Below, piece by piece: positions 21,076-54,567 of a DNA stretch of 64,000 nt; positions within the stretch are counted from its first letter, which is position 1; every line of letters begins with the position of its first letter. This stretch comes from Verrucomicrobiota bacterium. Its GTDB lineage: Bacteria > Verrucomicrobiota > Verrucomicrobiia > Palsa-1439. Where the stretch lies: the NCBI GenBank assembly GCA_016871575.1, contig VHCW01000001.1, positions 35,731 to 99,730 of the forward strand, in the 5' to 3' direction. The translations under genes and the position numbers were made by a program. Under the pieces are notes generated by a model. That model was not told the DNA's origin. It did not search any database and saw nothing but the letters and a program-made list of their open reading frames with translations.

Positions 21076-23449
21076 TCAAAAAGTTTCCTTCCCCTCCGAA
21101 ACATCAAGAAATTCGCGGACTTTGCGGGCCAGGTTGGTGGGGGTATAGGGTTTTTGGAGAAAGGCAGTGTGGCTTTCTTCAATGCCTTCCTGCGTCAGGA
21201 CATCGCGGGTGTAGCCGGACGTGTACAACACTTTCAATGTCGGCCTTGTCTGCCGCAGTTTCACCACGAGGTCGCGGCCGCCCATTTGCGGCATCACCAC
21301 GTCGGTGAGCACAAGATCCGGCTGGATGCCGGGGGTGTCTGCCAGCAACGCGAGTGCCTCAACGCCGTTGGACGCGGGCCAGACGGTGTAGCCTTGTTCG
21401 CGCAACACGGTCGTGGCCAGCAAACGCAGCGCCGGCTCATCCTCGACGACGAGGATGATTTCGTTGCCCCGCGGCAACGCGGTGGAAGCGGGTGGAGGTT
21501 TGTACGAGGCCGTTTCGCCGGGCAGGCGGGGCAAATAGACTTTGACACACGTGCCCCGACCCGGCTCGCTGTACACCACGATGTGACCGCCGCTTTGCTT
21601 GACGATGCCATAGCTCGTGGCCAAACCGAGGCCGGTGGCGTGTCCGTCCTTCTTGGTGGTGAAGAATGGCTCGAACAAATGCGCCTGCACCTCGGGCGAC
21701 ATTCCGACGCCGGTATCGGTGACGGACAACAGCACGCAATCGCCGGTTTGGATGTCGTGGTGTTTGCCGGCATAGCTTTCGTCGAGCGTGGCGTGGGAGG
21801 TGGCAATGGTCAGTGTGCCGCCCTGCGGCATGGCGTCGCGGGCGTTGACAGCGAGGTTGAGAATGACCTGCTCGATCTGGCTGGGGTCGGTCCGGATGAG
21901 GCCGATCGGATCGGCAAGAGCGGTCCGCAAGAGGATGTCATCGCCGAGCACGCGGTGCAGCATGTGGCTCATTTCGGTGACGATCTGGTTCAGGTTGAGG
22001 ACGACGGGTTGCAGGACTTGCTTGCGGCTGAAGGCGAGCAACTGGCGTGTCAGATGCGCGGCGCGATAGGAGGCTTTTTCGACTTCGACAGCCTCGCGGC
22101 GCAACGGGTCATATTGCGGAAGGCGTCGCAGGATGACCTCATTGTAGCCCATGATGGCGGTGAGGATGTTGTTGAAATCATGGGCGACACCACCGGCGAG
22201 GCGGCCAATGGCTTCCAACTTGTTCGTGCGGCGGAGTTGTTCCTCCATGCGGCGGCGTTCCGTGATGTCCTGTTTGACGGCGATGAAATGCGTGATTTGC
22301 CCTTGGGCGCCATAGACGGGAGTGATCGTCTGCTCCTCGGTGTAGAGAGTTCCGTCCTTGCGTCTGTTGATCATTTCGCCCTGCCAGATGCGACCATTCA
22401 GGATGGTGTCCCAAAGTTCCTGGTAGAAACGGCGCGTATGCTGGCTGGACTTGAGGAAACGCGGGTTGCGGCCGATGGCTTCGGCGGGTTCGTAGCCGGT
22501 CAGGCGGCTGAAAGCGGGGTTGGCCCAGATGATGCGGCCGGCGCGGTCGGTGATGAGGATGCCGTTGGCTGCGGCTTCCACCGCGCTGGATTTCAACAGC
22601 AGTTCCTCTTCGGATCGCCGGCGCTGGGTGATGTCGTGGTTGATTTCCAGTGTGCAGAGTTTGCCGCCGATGCGCAGGGGGACGGTAATCCACTCGAAAT
22701 AGTTCTCCTTGCCGTCGGGCCGTATCCATGAGGAGACGCCTCGATAAGGCATTCCAGCGTCACGGGGCTGTCGCAGTTGGGCTTGCTCGGAAGGGCTGAG
22801 CGCGGAACGGGTCAACTGGGTGAGGTCTGGGCAATTCAACAATTCATCGCGGCCGCGGCCGGACATTTCGACGAAACAGTCGTTGCAGAACACGAGTTTG
22901 CGGTAGAACCGTTGCGTTCCGTCGGCGGCGCTGTATTCGGCGCATTCGACCATGGCGATGCCGTCTCGGGCATACTCCAGCAGCAGTCGGAATCGTTGTT
23001 CGCTGGCGCGCCAGATTTCCTCCATGCGGCGGCGCTCGTTGATGTTGCGCACGTTTGCCAAAATGCAGCTCCGGCCGGCAATCTGGCAGGGCCGCAACGC
23101 CACCTCCACCCAGAATCGCTCGTCATTGTGCCGTCGGGCAAGCCACTCAAACGTTTGGGGGCCTTCCTGAAAGGCGCGACGAATCCATTCCTGCGCGTCC
23201 TGCGCCGAATGCGGAGGCTGAATGCGGAGGCTTGCCATCGCTCCACAACTCAATATGATGTCCGACAATTTGCTCGCGGGTGCATCCGTACATTTCCAAG
23301 GCGGCGCGATTGACATCAAGCACCATCCCGCTGACAGGATCGTGCAGGAAGATGGCATCGCTGGTGTTGTTGTACACTTCGCGATACACCGCATCGTTAT
23401 CCGGCAATCGTTGGTTCGTTGTCTCTGGCACGCTTGCGTTTTCTCCCAC
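21076..23449 (-). pseudogene. Hybrid sensor histidine kinase/response regulator with N-terminal PAS domains, frameshifted near the 5' end by a 13-bp tandem duplication.
   Basis: Three PAS-like segments; HisKA (HDFNNILTAI); HATPase_c (GTGLGLATSYGIV); receiver (ILVVEDE...DLVLTDVVMPQMGG). The first PAS domain is split between ORF 23147..23449 and ORF 21076..23457. Removing one copy of gaatgcggaggct (23207..23232) joins them in frame. Confidence 0.7.
23207..23232. repeat. Perfect 13-bp tandem duplication (gaatgcggaggct x2) inside the sensor kinase gene.
   Basis: Read directly in the sequence: ...cgccgaatgcggaggctgaatgcggaggcttgccat... Confidence 0.85.
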
Positions 23450-23505
23450 GATTCCAACCTTACCGCTCCGGGGCGGTCAAGTCCAGTGGCTTGTGAAATT
23501 ACCGC

Positions 23506-25080
23506 TCACTTCGCAGCAGGGGCGGCTGGGACCACTGGGACCGCAGGCTCCGCGGGGGTCGCCGCGGGCGGATTGCGGTCGGCGGCGCAACGGAAACCGA
23601 CACGATCCGAACGCCACTCGCGCAAGTTGGTGGTCATGCGCACCGTGACCGCAAGGTTGGTGCTGGCCCAGTTGCCGCCGCGGATGACGGCGTTGTTGCG
23701 GTTGGATGTGTCGGTCCATTCGCTGACGCCACCGGCCATGCCAATGACGCCGTAAGGGCTTTTGTCCTTGGCAAACCGATAGACGGAGTACCAACGAAAT
23801 AATTTGTCAGTTCCATCCCAAGCACAAATGTTCTTGAACTCGTTGCCCCACGGAAATGCGCGCCCATCGGTGCCGCGCGCGGCTTTTTCCCATTCCTCCT
23901 CGGTGGGCAGGCGTTTGCCGCGCCAGTTGGCGTAGGCCCAGGCGTCAAACCAATCCACGCCGAACACGGGCGAATCCCACGTGATCCACGCGCCGTTGAG
24001 CAATTGACGGCTCTTGATCGCCTCGACAATCAGTTCCCAGTTCGCCGGCACGTGAAGTTTTTTCCGCGGGGCAAACGGATGCTCGCGCACCTCGTCCTTC
24101 AAGGATGCCTCCACGAATTCCTTGTACTCGCCGAAGGTCACTTCATAACGGTCAATCAAGAACGCCCCCAGTTTCTTGCGCTCATTGTTTTGATAAATGA
24201 ACTCACCGGCCGGCACCTCGACCATCGTGCCGATGTCGGTGGGGCGCTCGGTGGTCGTTGGACGCTTCGCGCGCATCAGCGACCAAGCCAACCAACCGAC
24301 GCCGCCAATCAACGCCAGCAACACCGCGACGCCGGTGATGACAAGCACCGGGGAGGCGCGCCGTTTGGCCACCACCGGCGCGACAGGCGGTTTGCGGGTG
24401 GCGGCCGGAAACAACTCGCGCTCCAACGCGGTGGCCGCCGCTGCCACTTCGGCCAGCGAGGAGAATTTTTTGCGGCTCTTCGTGTCCATCAACCGTTCGA
24501 CAAAGAAGCCGACGCGGCGACTGACGGTGCCGGCGGCGTTGGCCAGCGTCGCCACCAGCACGCCGAGCGTTTCCACGTCCTGCTCGGGCGAGCGGCTGCC
24601 GGGGCGCTCGGCGGGCTGGATGTTGATCATCTTCACGTGCCCGGCCTTGTTGGGAAGCAGGTTCGCCTCCAGCGGCGGCTGGTGCGGCACCTTGTTTTTC
24701 CAGAGCGCATCGAGCGTCGTCGCGATTTCGGCGACCATCCGCAACAAGCGGCGCTCGTCGGCGCGGCCGGACACGTTTGCCTTGCGCAGAAACTCGCGCA
24801 ACGGCGGCCCGTCCATCAATTCCATCGCGCAGTAGTGAACACCGCCGGCCGTGCCGACTTCATAGACGGCCACGACGCCGTCGAGGGAAACTTGGGCCGC
24901 CTGGCGGGCCGAGGCGAGGAATCGCTCGACTTTGTTCGGGTCGGCGGTCAGTTCCGGCAACAACACCTTCAGAGCCACCGGGCGGTTCACCGCCGTCTGC
25001 ATGGCGCGATACACCGGCCCCCATCGGGTCTGCCCGATTTGCTCCTCGATGAAATACGGACCTAGCATCGTGCCTTCCAT
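23506..25080 (-). CDS. Ser/Thr protein kinase with a transmembrane segment, fused to a C-terminal formylglycine-generating-enzyme (FGE/SUMF1) sulfatase domain.
   Basis: Kinase N-lobe (VALKVL...). C-terminal ..WGNEF...GGNWAS...RVGFRCA, the FGE-sulfatase family signature. A GAGGAA ribosome-binding site lies upstream of the ATG at 25080. Confidence 0.78.
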
Positions 25081-36181: not shown

Positions 36182-36220
36182 GCTATTCGCTGTTGCGCTG
36201 TTGCGCTGTTGCGCTGTTGC
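36182..36220. repeat. 8-bp tandem repeat, (gctgttgc)x4 plus one degenerate copy, in the upstream region of the low-GC gene.
   Basis: Read directly: cgctattcgctgttgcgctgttgcgctgttgcgctgttgccagag. A second repeat, atttttgctgct x2, lies at 36295..36318. Confidence 0.8.
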
Positions 36221-36326
36221 CAGAGATGAAGCGTGTCATTTCATTTGTCTCCGGTCGGCATCTATAAGGCTCCGGTTTCCCAAAAGTCAATGTTATTTTT
36301 GCTGCTATTTTTGCTGCTGGCAAATC

Positions 36327-44725: not shown

Positions 44726-44801
44726 GGGGGTGTAGCTCATTTGGTAGAGCGCCTCGTTCGCAACGAGGAGGTAAGGGGTTCGAGTCCCCTCACCTCCACC
44801 A
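44726..44801 (+). tRNA. tRNA-Ala (anticodon CGC), with an encoded CCA end.
   Basis: GGGGGUG acceptor stem with a G3:U70 pair, anticodon loop UUCGCAA, T-loop UUCGAGU. The cloverleaf folds cleanly by hand. Confidence 0.85.
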
Positions 44802-52698: not shown

Positions 52699-52807
52699 GG
52701 TGGTCTGACTCCTGTTGCTTGATTCAACGTCTCAATTCTGCCAGATGAACACTCGCTCGTAACCTCTTGTTACATTCCTTTAACAAACCGATTACGGCAT
52801 GTCAACG

Positions 52808-52834
52808 CCCAACTTTCCCAACTTTCCCAACTTT
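52808..52834. repeat. 9-bp direct repeat (cccaacttt x3) roughly 110-135 bp upstream of the MotA/ExbB-like gene.
   Basis: Read directly: gcccaactttcccaactttcccaactttgggc. Confidence 0.8.
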
Positions 52835-53212
52835 GGGCGCGGTGGCGGTCGTAGGCTTTCTGAAAGTCGGCGGGATCGAGGAAGGCGAACACGTGCAACT
52901 TGCGCCCTTCCATGCGGTCTTTGCGGTTGACGAAAAATTCCCGAATCTCCGCGTAAAACTTCTCACAGCGCCGGGCGATCATGTCGCCGTGCGCGCAGCA
53001 ATGGATGACGAAGTGCTCGGTCTCGCCGTTTTTCCCCAGTCGGTGATCTGCTTGTCGGAAAGCTGCTCGAACGGTTTCTCGTCGCGATAGGCATTGCGGG
53101 CTGGCGGCATGGCCGGTGCGGCAGCGGCAGTGGAGGCGGAAGGCTTGAGCCGCTTCTCGCCTTCCGACACAACCTTCAAATCGCCGGCCGTGCGGCCCCT
53201 GGCGACGATGTG

Positions 53213-53476
53213 CTACTTGACGGCCACGTCCGAAAGAGGCGACGGCGCCATGCTGAGCAGTTTGATCGTCAATGCAACCTTCTGCGTGCGCTCGGCCACC
53301 TCCGGGGTGTACTGCTTTCCGCCCGGCACTGGTGTGACTGTGCCGCGCTTCTTGACCACACGGGAACTCTCTTCCTTCTTCTCCGCGTTCACCTGGACCG
53401 GCAACAATCCCTGCGCCGCCGAGCCTGATACCAAAAGCCAAGCGGCCAGCAATACGAACAAGATGTGTCGTGTCAT
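53213..53476 (-). CDS. Small secreted hypothetical protein.
   Basis: Signal peptide MTRHILFVLLAAWLLVSGSAAQG; Lys/Glu-rich mature part. Confidence 0.4.
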   Translation of the reverse strand: MTRHILFVLLAAWLLVSGSAAQGLLPVQVNAEKKEESSRVVKKRGTVTPVPGGKQYTPEVAERTQKVALTIKLLSMAPSPLSDVAVK

Positions 53477-53499
53477 GTCCCGTCCTCTTGTTGAATGCG

Positions 53500-54567
53500 T
53501 CAATTGACGGTTGAGGCCAAACGTTTGTTGTAATCATCCGTCATCAATGCCTCGATCAACTCCTCCAAATCCCCCTGCAAAATCGCCGGGAGATTCTGGA
53601 TGGTCAAGTTGATGCGGTGATCGGTCACGCGGTTCTGGGGAAAGTTGTAGGTGCGAATCTTCTCGCTGCGGTCGCCGGTGCCGACCTGGTCGCGCCGCGT
53701 CGCCGACATCCTCGCGGCCTCCTCTTCCTGTTTGTGGGCGAGGAGGCGCGAACGGAGAACGCGCAGCGCCTTGTTCTTGTTCTTGAGCTGGCTGCGCTCG
53801 TCGGCGCAACGAACGGTGACGCCGGTGGGTTTGTGGACGATGCGCACGGCGCTGTCGGTGGTGTTCACGCCCTGGCCGCCGGGGCCGCCGGCGCGGCAGA
53901 CGCTGATGTCGAGGTCTTCGGGCTTCAACTGGATGTCCACGTCCTCCGCTTCGGGCAACACGGCGACCGTGGCCGCCGAGGTGTGGATGCGGCCTTGCGC
54001 CTCGGTCTCGGGGACGCGCTGGACGCGGTGAACGCCGCTTTCGTAACGCATCTTCTTGAAGACGTCCTGACCGTTGACGGAGAAGATGATTTCCTTGAAG
54101 CCGCCGCGTTCGCTGGGGCTGGTGTCCATGATCTCGACCTTCCAGCCTTGGGTGTCGGCGAACTTGTTGTACATCCGGAAGAGGTCGCCGGCAAACAAGG
54201 CCGCTTCCTCGCCCCCGGTGCCGGCGCGGATCTCGACGATGGTGTTCCGTGAATCGTTGGGATCCGGCGGAACAAGGCCACGTTGAACGTCGCGGTCGGC
54301 GCGTTCGAGGTCTCGTCGGAGCGGTTCCAGTTCGGACTTCGCCAGTTCGCCCAGTTCCGGGTCGGCGACGAGTTTCTCGTTTTCGGCGATTTGTTTCTGG
54401 AGCGCCTGCCAACGGTCGGCATCGGCAAGGAGCTTGCGGACGCGCTGGAGTTCGCGCGCGAGGTCGCCGGCGCGGCGCTGGTCGGCGAAGACGGCGGGAT
54501 TGGACAACTCGGCTTCGAGGTCGCCGGCGCGTTTGCGGAACCGGTCCAGGTTGGGCAGGGCGTTCAT
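53500..54567 (-). CDS. prfA: Peptide chain release factor 1.
   Basis: GGQGVN (the GGQ motif) and a P-E-T tripeptide (RF1-type PxT). Confidence 0.9.
   Translation of the reverse strand: MNALPNLDRFRKRAGDLEAELSNPAVFADQRRAGDLARELQRVRKLLADADRWQALQKQIAENEKLVADPELGELAKSELEPLRRDLERADRDVQRGLVPPDPNDSRNTIVEIRAGTGGEEAALFAGDLFRMYNKFADTQGWKVEIMDTSPSERGGFKEIIFSVNGQDVFKKMRYESGVHRVQRVPETEAQGRIHTSAATVAVLPEAEDVDIQLKPEDLDISVCRAGGPGGQGVNTTDSAVRIVHKPTGVTVRCADERSQLKNKNKALRVLRSRLLAHKQEEEAARMSATRRDQVGTGDRSEKIRTYNFPQNRVTDHRINLTIQNLPAILQGDLEELIEALMTDDYNKRLASTVN

What the first reader, a model, noticed from the sequence alone, without database searches (positions are those of the whole stretch)
23147..23457. Perfect 13-bp tandem duplication frameshifts the first PAS domain of a hybrid sensor histidine kinase
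The motif gaatgcggaggct occurs twice in direct tandem (23207..23219 and 23220..23232). On the coding (minus) strand this splits a single PAS domain between two frames. ORF 23147..23449 ends ..IVGHHIELWSDGKPPHSASAFGAG..; ORF 21076..23457 resumes ..MASLRIQPPHSAQDAQEWIRRAFQEGPQTFEWLARRHNDERFWVEVALRPC... Deleting one 13-bp copy gives a seamless ..WSDGKPPHSAQDAQEWIRRAF.. PAS core and a ~786-aa intact kinase. The current sequence therefore represents one of three things: a recent inactivating mutation (pseudogenisation or adaptive loss of a sensor); a reversible slipped-strand on/off switch; or an assembly error. Notably, the duplication creates an in-frame ATG (MASLR) that could drive an N-terminally truncated kinase lacking the first PAS domain.
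Basis: seen in the sequence. Interest (0 to 1): 0.7.

Follow-up and report, generated by a model that had tools for sequence, protein, structure and literature searches.

The report
Frameshifted sensor kinase gene, real mutation
A perfect 13-base tandem duplication has broken the first sensor (PAS) domain of a signalling kinase gene in an uncultured Lake Tanganyika Verrucomicrobium; it is a genuine recent mutation carried by the whole sampled population, not an assembly error, but it is an ordinary kind of gene-disrupting mutation.

Summary
GAATGCGGAGGCT occurs twice in perfect tandem at 23207..23232, and shuffled sequence gives none. On the minus strand it shifts the frame inside the first PAS domain of a cytoplasmic PAS-PAS-PAS-HisKA-HATPase-REC hybrid histidine kinase. 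Removing one copy restores a 780/786-aa protein whose N-terminus matches the whole Pfam PAS_9 profile. That protein aligns without gaps across the site to four 775-aa orthologues (73-77% identity), three of them shown to share upstream synteny.

Assembly error is effectively excluded. The same duplication sits in five further contigs that are 99.99-100% identical to the window. Three come from Lake Tanganyika samples assembled separately with metaSPAdes, and two from Logan assemblies of SRA runs. No intact allele was found in the protein collections.

The event is recent. The two copies are identical, all catalytic motifs downstream are intact, and dN/dS of both gene parts (about 0.2-0.3) shows no relaxation.

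The best reading is a recent frameshift, fixed or dominant in the population, that destroys PAS1. The product is then either null or an N-terminally truncated kinase made from a weak internal ATG. A reversible switch is mechanistically possible but has no support here. GenBank annotates the locus as two overlapping 'PAS domain S-box protein' genes, with no pseudogene flag seen. Interest is low.

The parts
23207..23219 (-). 13-bp unit, copy 1 (+ strand GAATGCGGAGGCT; mRNA sense AGCCTCCGCATTC)
23220..23232 (-). 13-bp unit, copy 2, identical to copy 1. Either copy is the +13 nt insertion relative to the orthologues.
23147..23431 (-). N-terminal fragment CDS, from the conserved GTG start (VPETT...; the mechanical ORF starts 6 codons earlier at 23449). 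It encodes the first part of PAS1 (profile 1-38) followed by a 23-aa out-of-frame tail and a TGA stop.
   Evidence: GenBank calls it a 101-aa protein (P0127).
21076..23238 (-). Downstream kinase ORF from the internal ATG (MASLR..., 720 aa = P0001). It holds the C-terminal part of PAS1 (profile 42-103), PAS2, PAS3, HisKA, HATPase_c and REC. GenBank calls a 746-aa version starting at 23316.
23035..23362 (-). PAS1 (residues 30-134 of the repaired 786-aa protein), interrupted by the duplication at about profile position 39-41.
   Evidence: coordinates converted by hand
22624..22899 (-). PAS2, a weak match (PAS_9 24.4 bits, below the 27-bit cut-off when scanned alone).
22258..22587 (-). PAS3, a strong match covering the full PAS_9 profile.
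22018..22206 (-). HisKA dimerisation and phospho-acceptor domain; H-box AHDFNN intact.
21526..21888 (-). HATPase_c catalytic domain; N, G1 (DTGVG), F (FEPFFT) and G2 (GLGLA) boxes intact.
21118..21456 (-). C-terminal receiver (REC) domain; the EDE acidic pocket, the phospho-acceptor Asp (LTDVVMP) and the conserved K (QKPY) are intact.
23475..23494 (-). Conserved upstream element ACAAGCCACTGGACTTGACC, in the short intergenic region before the kinase start. It is nearly invariant in three orthologous loci. Its role as a promoter or operator is an inference only.

Best explanation
This is a genuine, evolutionarily recent 13-bp tandem duplication (+1 frameshift) in the coding sequence of a soluble PAS-PAS-PAS-HisKA-HATPase_c-REC hybrid sensor histidine kinase. 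The host is an uncultured Verrucomicrobiota bacterium from Lake Tanganyika.

Shown:
- The duplication is real and is the consensus allele in every independent assembly of this population that could be retrieved.
- The ancestral state is a single copy.
- The break falls about 40% of the way into the first PAS domain, so neither reading frame encodes a complete PAS1.
- The remaining 720 codons are undamaged.

Inferred:
- Ribosomes starting at the native GTG (23431) make a 94-aa dead-end peptide: the first part of PAS1 plus a 23-aa nonsense tail.
- The kinase body can only be made by internal initiation at ATG 23238 or a nearby start. That start has a poorly spaced GGAG and lies within a translated region.
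- The gene is therefore most likely a null or strongly hypomorphic allele, that is, a young pseudogene. At best it yields a kinase blind to whatever PAS1 senses.
- The duplication arose by a replication or repair error. Precise loss of one copy could restore the gene, but nothing indicates that this is a programmed or frequent event.
For: Duplication and frames.

Domain split: the repaired N-terminus gives PAS_9 1-103/103 at 55.5 bits, against fragments covering 1-38 and 42-103.

Ancestral single copy: four 775-aa relatives at 73-77% identity. Three of them were fetched as loci. They share the upstream neighbours (a 187-189-aa gene and a Pkinase+FGE-sulfatase gene) and a conserved GTG start, and they align gaplessly over the site.

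Not an artefact: the exact 720-aa product, whose first residues exist only because of the duplication, is on 7 contigs. The five loci fetched (L001-L005) all carry both copies and are 100% identical to the window, or differ by 2 SNPs in 14 kb. Three are JGI samples 3300020083, 3300020074 and 3300020603. These are three of 24 Lake Tanganyika samples, each assembled de novo on its own with metaSPAdes 3.12 from 2x150 Illumina reads. Two are Logan assemblies of SRA runs.

Recent: the two copies are identical. dN/dS of the orphaned N-fragment against the orthologues is 0.20-0.31, and of the rest 0.17-0.23, compared with 0.16-0.25 and 0.17-0.21 among the orthologues themselves. The H, N, G1, F and G2 boxes and the REC Asp/Lys are all intact.

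No intact allele: nothing between 77% and 100% identity in the 5.8-billion-cluster search. The cluster members are 720, 746 and 558 aa only. Exact look-ups of four start variants of the repaired protein all failed.

Weak internal start: GGAG ends 2 nt before ATG 23238.
Against: No read-level data could be examined. A minority single-copy allele within samples cannot be excluded, and consensus assemblies would hide it.

The two Logan runs may be the same physical samples as the JGI ones, so the firm count of independent samples is three.

The complete integrity of 720 downstream codons also fits a product that is still made and still selected.

Persistence as the consensus allele in several samples, and across at least two haplotypes differing by 2 SNPs, could mean the allele is tolerated or favoured rather than simply decaying.

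The two metagenome DNA scans returned nothing at all, not even the known contigs. The N-terminal protein search had poor sensitivity. The absence of intact-allele fragments is therefore only moderately informative.
Confidence: 0.8

Rival explanations
1. Adaptive domain loss. The selected product is an N-terminally truncated kinase (PAS2-PAS3-HisKA-HATPase-REC) translated from ATG 23238, or from the ATG at 23316 used by GenBank. The mutation rewires or uncouples signalling rather than abolishing it.
For: The duplication puts an ATG preceded by GGAG in frame with the kinase body. Two gene callers predict such a product: 720 aa in JGI/Logan and 746 aa in NCBI. All catalytic motifs are intact and the downstream part shows no relaxed selection. 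The allele is the consensus in several samples.
Against: Intactness and low dN/dS are equally expected for any very recent frameshift, because pairwise dN/dS is dominated by the long pre-mutation history. The GGAG-ATG spacing of 2 nt is outside the usual functional range (established knowledge). The ATG lies inside the translated N-fragment ORF, 88 nt before its stop. The product would carry about 60 residues of an unfoldable partial PAS domain (profile 42-103).
Confidence: 0.2
2. Reversible slipped-strand on/off switch (contingency locus). The population toggles between one and two copies of the 13-mer to switch the sensor kinase off and on.
For: A perfect tandem duplication can be lost precisely by slippage or recombination between its copies (established knowledge). 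Reversible duplication inside a two-component sensor gene is a known way of phenotypic switching: the 661-bp duplication in Pseudomonas tolaasii pheN (Han, Pain & Johnstone 1997, listed in the references of PMC12124856). Tandem-repeat copy number has been described as phase-variable in M. tuberculosis (PMC12817950).
Against: There are only two copies of a 13-nt unit, not the multi-copy 1-8-nt tract typical of contingency loci. All retrieved contigs carry the two-copy state, and no one-copy or three-copy allele was found. The orthologues have different DNA at the site and no repeat, so the site is not a conserved switch. No microhomology flanks the unit.
Confidence: 0.07
3. Assembly or sequencing artefact. 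The true genome has one copy.
For: The source is a metagenome-assembled genome and no reads were inspected here.
Against: The same 26-bp structure appears in separate de novo assemblies of three different samples (metaSPAdes), in two Logan assemblies made with a different assembler, and in the 123-kb MAG contig. A 26-bp feature lies well within a single 150-nt read, so the novel junction sequence must be present in reads. Illumina errors do not generate 13-nt insertions (established knowledge).
Confidence: 0.03
4. Programmed recoding. A +1 ribosomal frameshift or transcriptional slippage in the overlap restores a full-length kinase.
For: The kinase frame is open through the whole N-fragment region (ORF 21076..23457), so a +1 shift anywhere in the overlap would join the two parts.
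Against: The overlap has no homopolymer run of 6 or more and no recognisable +1 slippery site with a stimulatory SD (read). A shift at the N-fragment stop (GUU UGA) would replace about 19 PAS1 residues (AQDAQEWIRRAFQEGPQTF) with a 23-residue nonsense segment. The orthologues need no recoding.
Confidence: 0.01

Closest known systems
Frameshift pseudogenes made by short tandem duplications (ordinary spontaneous insertion mutations)
   Same: A perfect short direct duplication, not a multiple of three, inside a conserved domain. The gene is otherwise intact, and single-copy orthologues show the ancestral state.
   Different: Here the allele is seen as the consensus in several natural samples rather than in a single isolate. 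No flanking microhomology is present. The public annotation treats the two halves as two genes.
Pseudomonas tolaasii pheN: reversible 661-bp duplication within a two-component sensor gene causing colony phenotypic switching (Han, Pain & Johnstone 1997; cited in PMC12124856)
   Same: A tandem duplication inside a sensor-kinase gene that disrupts it and could in principle be reversed by loss of one copy.
   Different: 13 bp against 661 bp. Reversion, phenotype and population heterogeneity were shown for pheN, and none of them is shown here.
Simple-sequence-repeat contingency loci (slipped-strand phase variation, e.g. homopolymeric tracts in Bordetella pertussis, PMC1891110; tandem-repeat copy-number variation in M. 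tuberculosis, PMC12817950)
   Same: A change in repeat copy number toggles the reading frame.
   Different: Those tracts have many copies of short units and show variation between and within strains. This is a two-copy 13-mer with no observed variation.
Soluble multi-PAS hybrid histidine kinases (PAS-HisKA-HATPase_c-REC; often auto-labelled 'CckA-like' by KEGG-based pipelines)
   Same: The domain order and all catalytic motifs match. Thousands of homologues were found.
   Different: PAS1 is interrupted. The 'CckA' labels on distant homologues are automatic names, and no evidence here supports CckA orthology.

Membership tests
Hybrid sensor histidine kinase (HisKA/HATPase_c with fused receiver) | HisKA domain with phospho-acceptor His in an H-box | tested here: met
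   PF00512 34.2 bits against a 26.9 cut-off. AHDFNN is identical in the orthologues.
Hybrid sensor histidine kinase (HisKA/HATPase_c with fused receiver) | HATPase_c domain with N, G1, F and G2 boxes | tested here: met
   PF02518 80.6 bits. NLAVNARDA, DTGVG, FEPFFT and GLGLA are all present.
Hybrid sensor histidine kinase (HisKA/HATPase_c with fused receiver) | C-terminal receiver domain with acidic pocket, phospho-acceptor Asp and conserved Lys | tested here: met
   PF00072 70.8 bits. VEDE, LTDVVMP and QKPY are conserved.
Hybrid sensor histidine kinase (HisKA/HATPase_c with fused receiver) | A single uninterrupted reading frame encoding sensor plus transmitter | tested here: not met
   The +13 nt shifts the frame within PAS1. 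The native start leads to a stop at 23147. This makes it a disrupted member.
PAS domain (PAS1) | Complete PAS profile match | tested here: not met
   The match is complete only after one copy is removed in silico (1-103/103, 55.5 bits). In the actual sequence the fragments cover profile 1-38 and 42-103 in different frames.
Phase-variable contingency locus | Copy-number heterogeneity of the repeat between or within populations | tested here: not met
   All five fetched loci and the window carry exactly two copies. No intact allele was found in the protein collections. This was tested on consensus assemblies only.
Phase-variable contingency locus | High-frequency reversible switching | not testable with these tools
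   This needs read-level variant frequencies or culture experiments.
Phase-variable contingency locus | Repeat tract conserved at the site in relatives | tested here: not met
   Three orthologous loci have a single, sequence-divergent copy.
Pseudogene (recent) | Disrupted frame relative to intact positional orthologues | tested here: met
Pseudogene (recent) | Loss of expression or function | not testable with these tools
   No transcript, protein or phenotype data are available.

The most novel reading that the evidence does not exclude
The 13-bp duplication is a naturally occurring, reversible genetic toggle in a free-living freshwater Verrucomicrobium. It would switch a cytoplasmic multi-PAS hybrid kinase between a full-length PAS1-regulated form and an off or PAS1-less form, with the two-copy state currently dominant in Lake Tanganyika. 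It would then be a bet-hedging device outside the pathogen world, where such switches are mostly known.
Probability: 0.06. Interest if true: 0.5.

Novelty: new member of a known kind. Interest (0 to 1): 0.2.

Why it matters
The main value is practical. The public annotation of this MAG lists two overlapping 'PAS domain S-box protein' genes (101 aa and 746 aa, MBM3858057.1), and JGI/Logan call a 720-aa gene. The locus is really one frameshifted hybrid kinase, so it should be flagged as disrupted.

Biologically, it is a clean example of a very young gene-disrupting mutation that is the consensus allele in several independent samples of a wild freshwater population. It could serve as a marker for that population, or as a small case study of sensor loss in nature.

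It opens no new mechanism unless read-level data show that the site toggles.

Tried and rejected
1. Two scans of metagenome contigs for the junction found nothing, not even the known Lake Tanganyika contigs. One used a variable gap to catch 1-3 copies; the other used the left flank plus one unit. That collection evidently lacks them, so the scans say nothing about allele frequencies.

2. The genome-contig scan with the repaired protein returned only distant multi-PAS kinases (34-57% over part of the length) and no orthologue. The species or genus is not among the representative genomes, or the peptide patterns missed it.

3. A second protein search used only the repaired N-terminal 156 aa, to catch short intact-junction fragments. 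It produced 12 candidates and a single hit, the GenBank 101-aa frameshifted fragment. It even missed P0001-P0005, so its negative result is weak.

4. Exact look-ups of four start variants of the repaired protein and four of the N-fragment were all absent.

5. Programmed frameshifting or transcriptional slippage was considered and rejected for lack of slippery or homopolymer motifs.

6. A transposon-excision footprint, meaning a retained 13-bp target-site duplication, was considered as the origin because the unit has no flanking microhomology. It could not be tested, since no related contig with an insertion at the site was available, so it remains speculation.

7. A sigma-70-like hit on the antisense strand at 23232..23259 is the only one in 2.7 kb, against 0.4 expected by chance. 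It would also exist in the single-copy ancestor, so it was judged not meaningful.

8. GC3 frame statistics agree with the frame switch at the duplication but are weakly discriminating.

Full report
**Observation**

The + strand at 23207..23232 reads GAATGCGGAGGCT GAATGCGGAGGCT, flanked by ...ctgcgcc and tgccatc.... Tandem Repeats Finder reports period 13, 2.0 copies, 100% matches and score 52. The copies are identical, and the repeat can be neither extended nor rotated. So the endpoints are unique and carry no microhomology.

A perfect tandem duplication of 13 nt or more is expected about 0.001 times in 64 kb of random sequence. Twenty shuffles of the window gave none.

Deleting one copy in silico gives one 786-codon ORF reading ...WSDGKPPHSAQDAQEWIRRAF....

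**What the gene is**

The repaired protein matches Pfam PAS families (three stretches for PAS_9), HisKA, HATPase_c and Response_reg, all above their curated cut-offs. It has no hydrophobic segment: the maximum Kyte-Doolittle 19-residue mean is 1.38. It is therefore a soluble PAS-PAS-PAS-HisKA-HATPase-REC hybrid histidine kinase.

Scanned alone, the repaired N-terminal 149 residues match the entire PAS_9 profile (1-103/103, 55.5 bits). The real N-terminal fragment covers only profile positions 1-38, and the real downstream ORF resumes at position 42. The duplication therefore cuts PAS1 about 40% of the way in, and neither frame encodes a foldable PAS1.

Downstream, the H-box, the N, G1, F and G2 boxes, and the receiver's acidic pocket, Asp and Lys are all intact. 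They are identical or nearly identical to the orthologues.

**Ancestral state**

The large protein search found four 775-aa relatives at 73-77% identity over 98% of the repaired protein (P0002-P0005). Three of them were fetched as loci. In all three:
- The kinase follows the same upstream genes as in the window: a 187-189-aa gene, then a Ser/Thr-kinase/FGE-sulfatase fusion.
- The gene starts at a conserved GTG CCA GA(G/A) (VPE...).
- That start is preceded by a nearly invariant 20-nt element.

They are positional orthologues. The protein and codon alignments run across the duplication site without a gap. One copy is therefore ancestral, and the second copy is an insertion in the window's lineage. 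The native start in the window is thus most likely GTG 23431, giving a 780-aa intact protein.

**Real or artefact**

The exact 720-aa product MASLRIQPPHSAQ... begins with residues that exist only because of the duplication. It is recorded on seven contigs. The five loci fetched all contain both copies. They are 100% identical to the window over 7.9-14.2 kb, except L001, which differs at two positions (window 29135 and 15171).

Three of the loci come from JGI samples 3300020083, 3300020074 and 3300020603. These are three of the 24 Lake Tanganyika water samples that were each assembled de novo on their own with metaSPAdes 3.12 from 2x150 Illumina reads (Tran et al., bioRxiv 10.1101/834861). Two more are Logan assemblies of SRA runs; whether these are the same physical samples is unknown.

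The cluster also holds GenBank protein MBM3858057.1 (746 aa, 'Verrucomicrobia bacterium' MAG) on a 123,288-bp contig, presumably the source of the window.

A 26-bp structure lies inside single reads, and its junction must exist in the reads to be assembled. Several assemblies and two assemblers agree, so an artefact is very unlikely (about 3%).

**Age and population status**

Several lines point to a recent event:
- The two copies are identical.
- The orphaned N-fragment still has dN/dS of 0.20-0.31 against the orthologues, compared with 0.16-0.25 among the orthologues themselves.
- The 655-codon remainder has 0.17-0.23, compared with 0.17-0.21 among the orthologues.
- There is no second lesion anywhere in the gene.

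The frameshift is therefore very young relative to the divergence from the nearest relatives (dS about 0.6-0.85).

No intact allele was found:
- Nothing lies between 77% and 100% identity in the 5.8-billion-cluster search.
- The members of the 100% cluster are 720, 746 and 558 aa.
- Exact look-ups of four start variants of the repaired protein failed.

These are consensus-level tests, so a minority allele in the reads cannot be excluded. Two DNA scans of the metagenome collection were uninformative because they did not even find the known contigs. A protein search with the N-terminus alone had poor sensitivity.

**Consequence**

The steps below are inferred, not shown.

Translation from the native GTG ends after 94 residues, made up of 71 native residues plus a 23-residue nonsense tail. 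The kinase body needs internal initiation. The in-frame ATG at 23238 was not created by the duplication: it spans the GAT GGC codons upstream of the repeat, and the duplication only brought it into frame. Its GGAG ends just 2 nt before the ATG, and the site lies inside the translated N-fragment ORF, 88 nt before that ORF's stop. Other genes nearby show only sporadic SD motifs, so initiation there cannot be excluded. Any product would start with about 60 residues of an incomplete PAS domain.

I therefore rate a null or hypomorphic allele (a young pseudogene) as most likely. A truncated, PAS1-blind kinase that is expressed and perhaps selected gets about 0.2.

**Reversible switch**

Precise loss of one copy would restore the gene, and there is precedent for reversible duplications in sensor genes. 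Pseudomonas tolaasii pheN has a 661-bp example (Han et al. 1997, cited in PMC12124856). Tandem-repeat copy number has also been described as phase-variable (PMC12817950).

Against this, the present site has only two copies of a long unit, shows no observed copy-number variation, and carries no repeat in the orthologues. I give it about 0.07.

Programmed recoding is rejected because the overlap has no slippery or homopolymer motif.

**Comparison and verdict**

This is a new instance of a well-known kind of event: a short tandem-duplication frameshift in a two-component sensor gene. It is slightly unusual in being documented as the dominant allele across several samples of a wild population, and in being annotated in public databases as two or one intact genes.

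Interest is low (0.2). The only route to higher interest is read-level evidence that the site toggles.

Noticed in passing
window 23213..23224 (+ strand), ORF 23222..23755 (+): On the antisense strand the duplication places GGAGG (copy 1) 4 nt upstream of ATG (copy 2), creating an SD-ATG pair at the head of a 177-aa antisense ORF. The single-copy ancestor has no SD there. Nothing suggests the ORF is a gene.
   Followed up: partly
window 23475..23494 (- strand); L086, L087 and L089 upstream of the kinase start: A 20-nt element ACAAGCCACTGGACTT(G/T)ACC is almost invariant in the short intergenic region upstream of the kinase in the window and three orthologous loci, although the proteins are only 73-77% identical. 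It may be a promoter or operator.
   Followed up: partly
window 21076..23452 (GenBank MAG annotation): GenBank annotates two overlapping CDSs, both named 'PAS domain S-box protein': a 101-aa one (P0127) and a 746-aa one (P0121 = MBM3858057.1). JGI and Logan gene calls give a 720-aa protein and no N-fragment. None of the database entries seen names the locus as frameshifted.
   Followed up: yes
window 23506..25080 (- strand): The gene immediately upstream of the kinase is a 524-aa fusion of a Ser/Thr protein kinase domain with an FGE-sulfatase domain. This adjacency is conserved in all three orthologous loci fetched, whereas the downstream neighbour differs (a cold-shock-domain gene here, an EF-G-like gene in at least one orthologous locus). 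It hints at a functional link between the two signalling proteins.
   Followed up: partly
window 36188..36220 and 36294..36318: Two perfect tandem repeats lie in the non-coding gap between two minus-strand ORFs: an 8-bp repeat CGCTGTTG x4.1 and a 12-bp repeat TATTTTTGCTGC x2.1.
   Followed up: no
window 52808..52834: A perfect 9-bp x3 tandem repeat (CCCAACTTT) lies near the 3' end of minus-strand ORF 52770..53537. Its length is a multiple of three, so it preserves the frame.
   Followed up: no
window 44726..44798 (+): A single tRNA gene (Rfam RF00005, 69.7 bits) is the only Rfam gathering-threshold hit in the window.
   Followed up: no
window 29135 and 15171 versus L001: These are the only two differences between the window and the contig from JGI sample 3300020083 over 14.2 kb. 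At least two near-identical haplotypes therefore share the duplication.
   Followed up: partly
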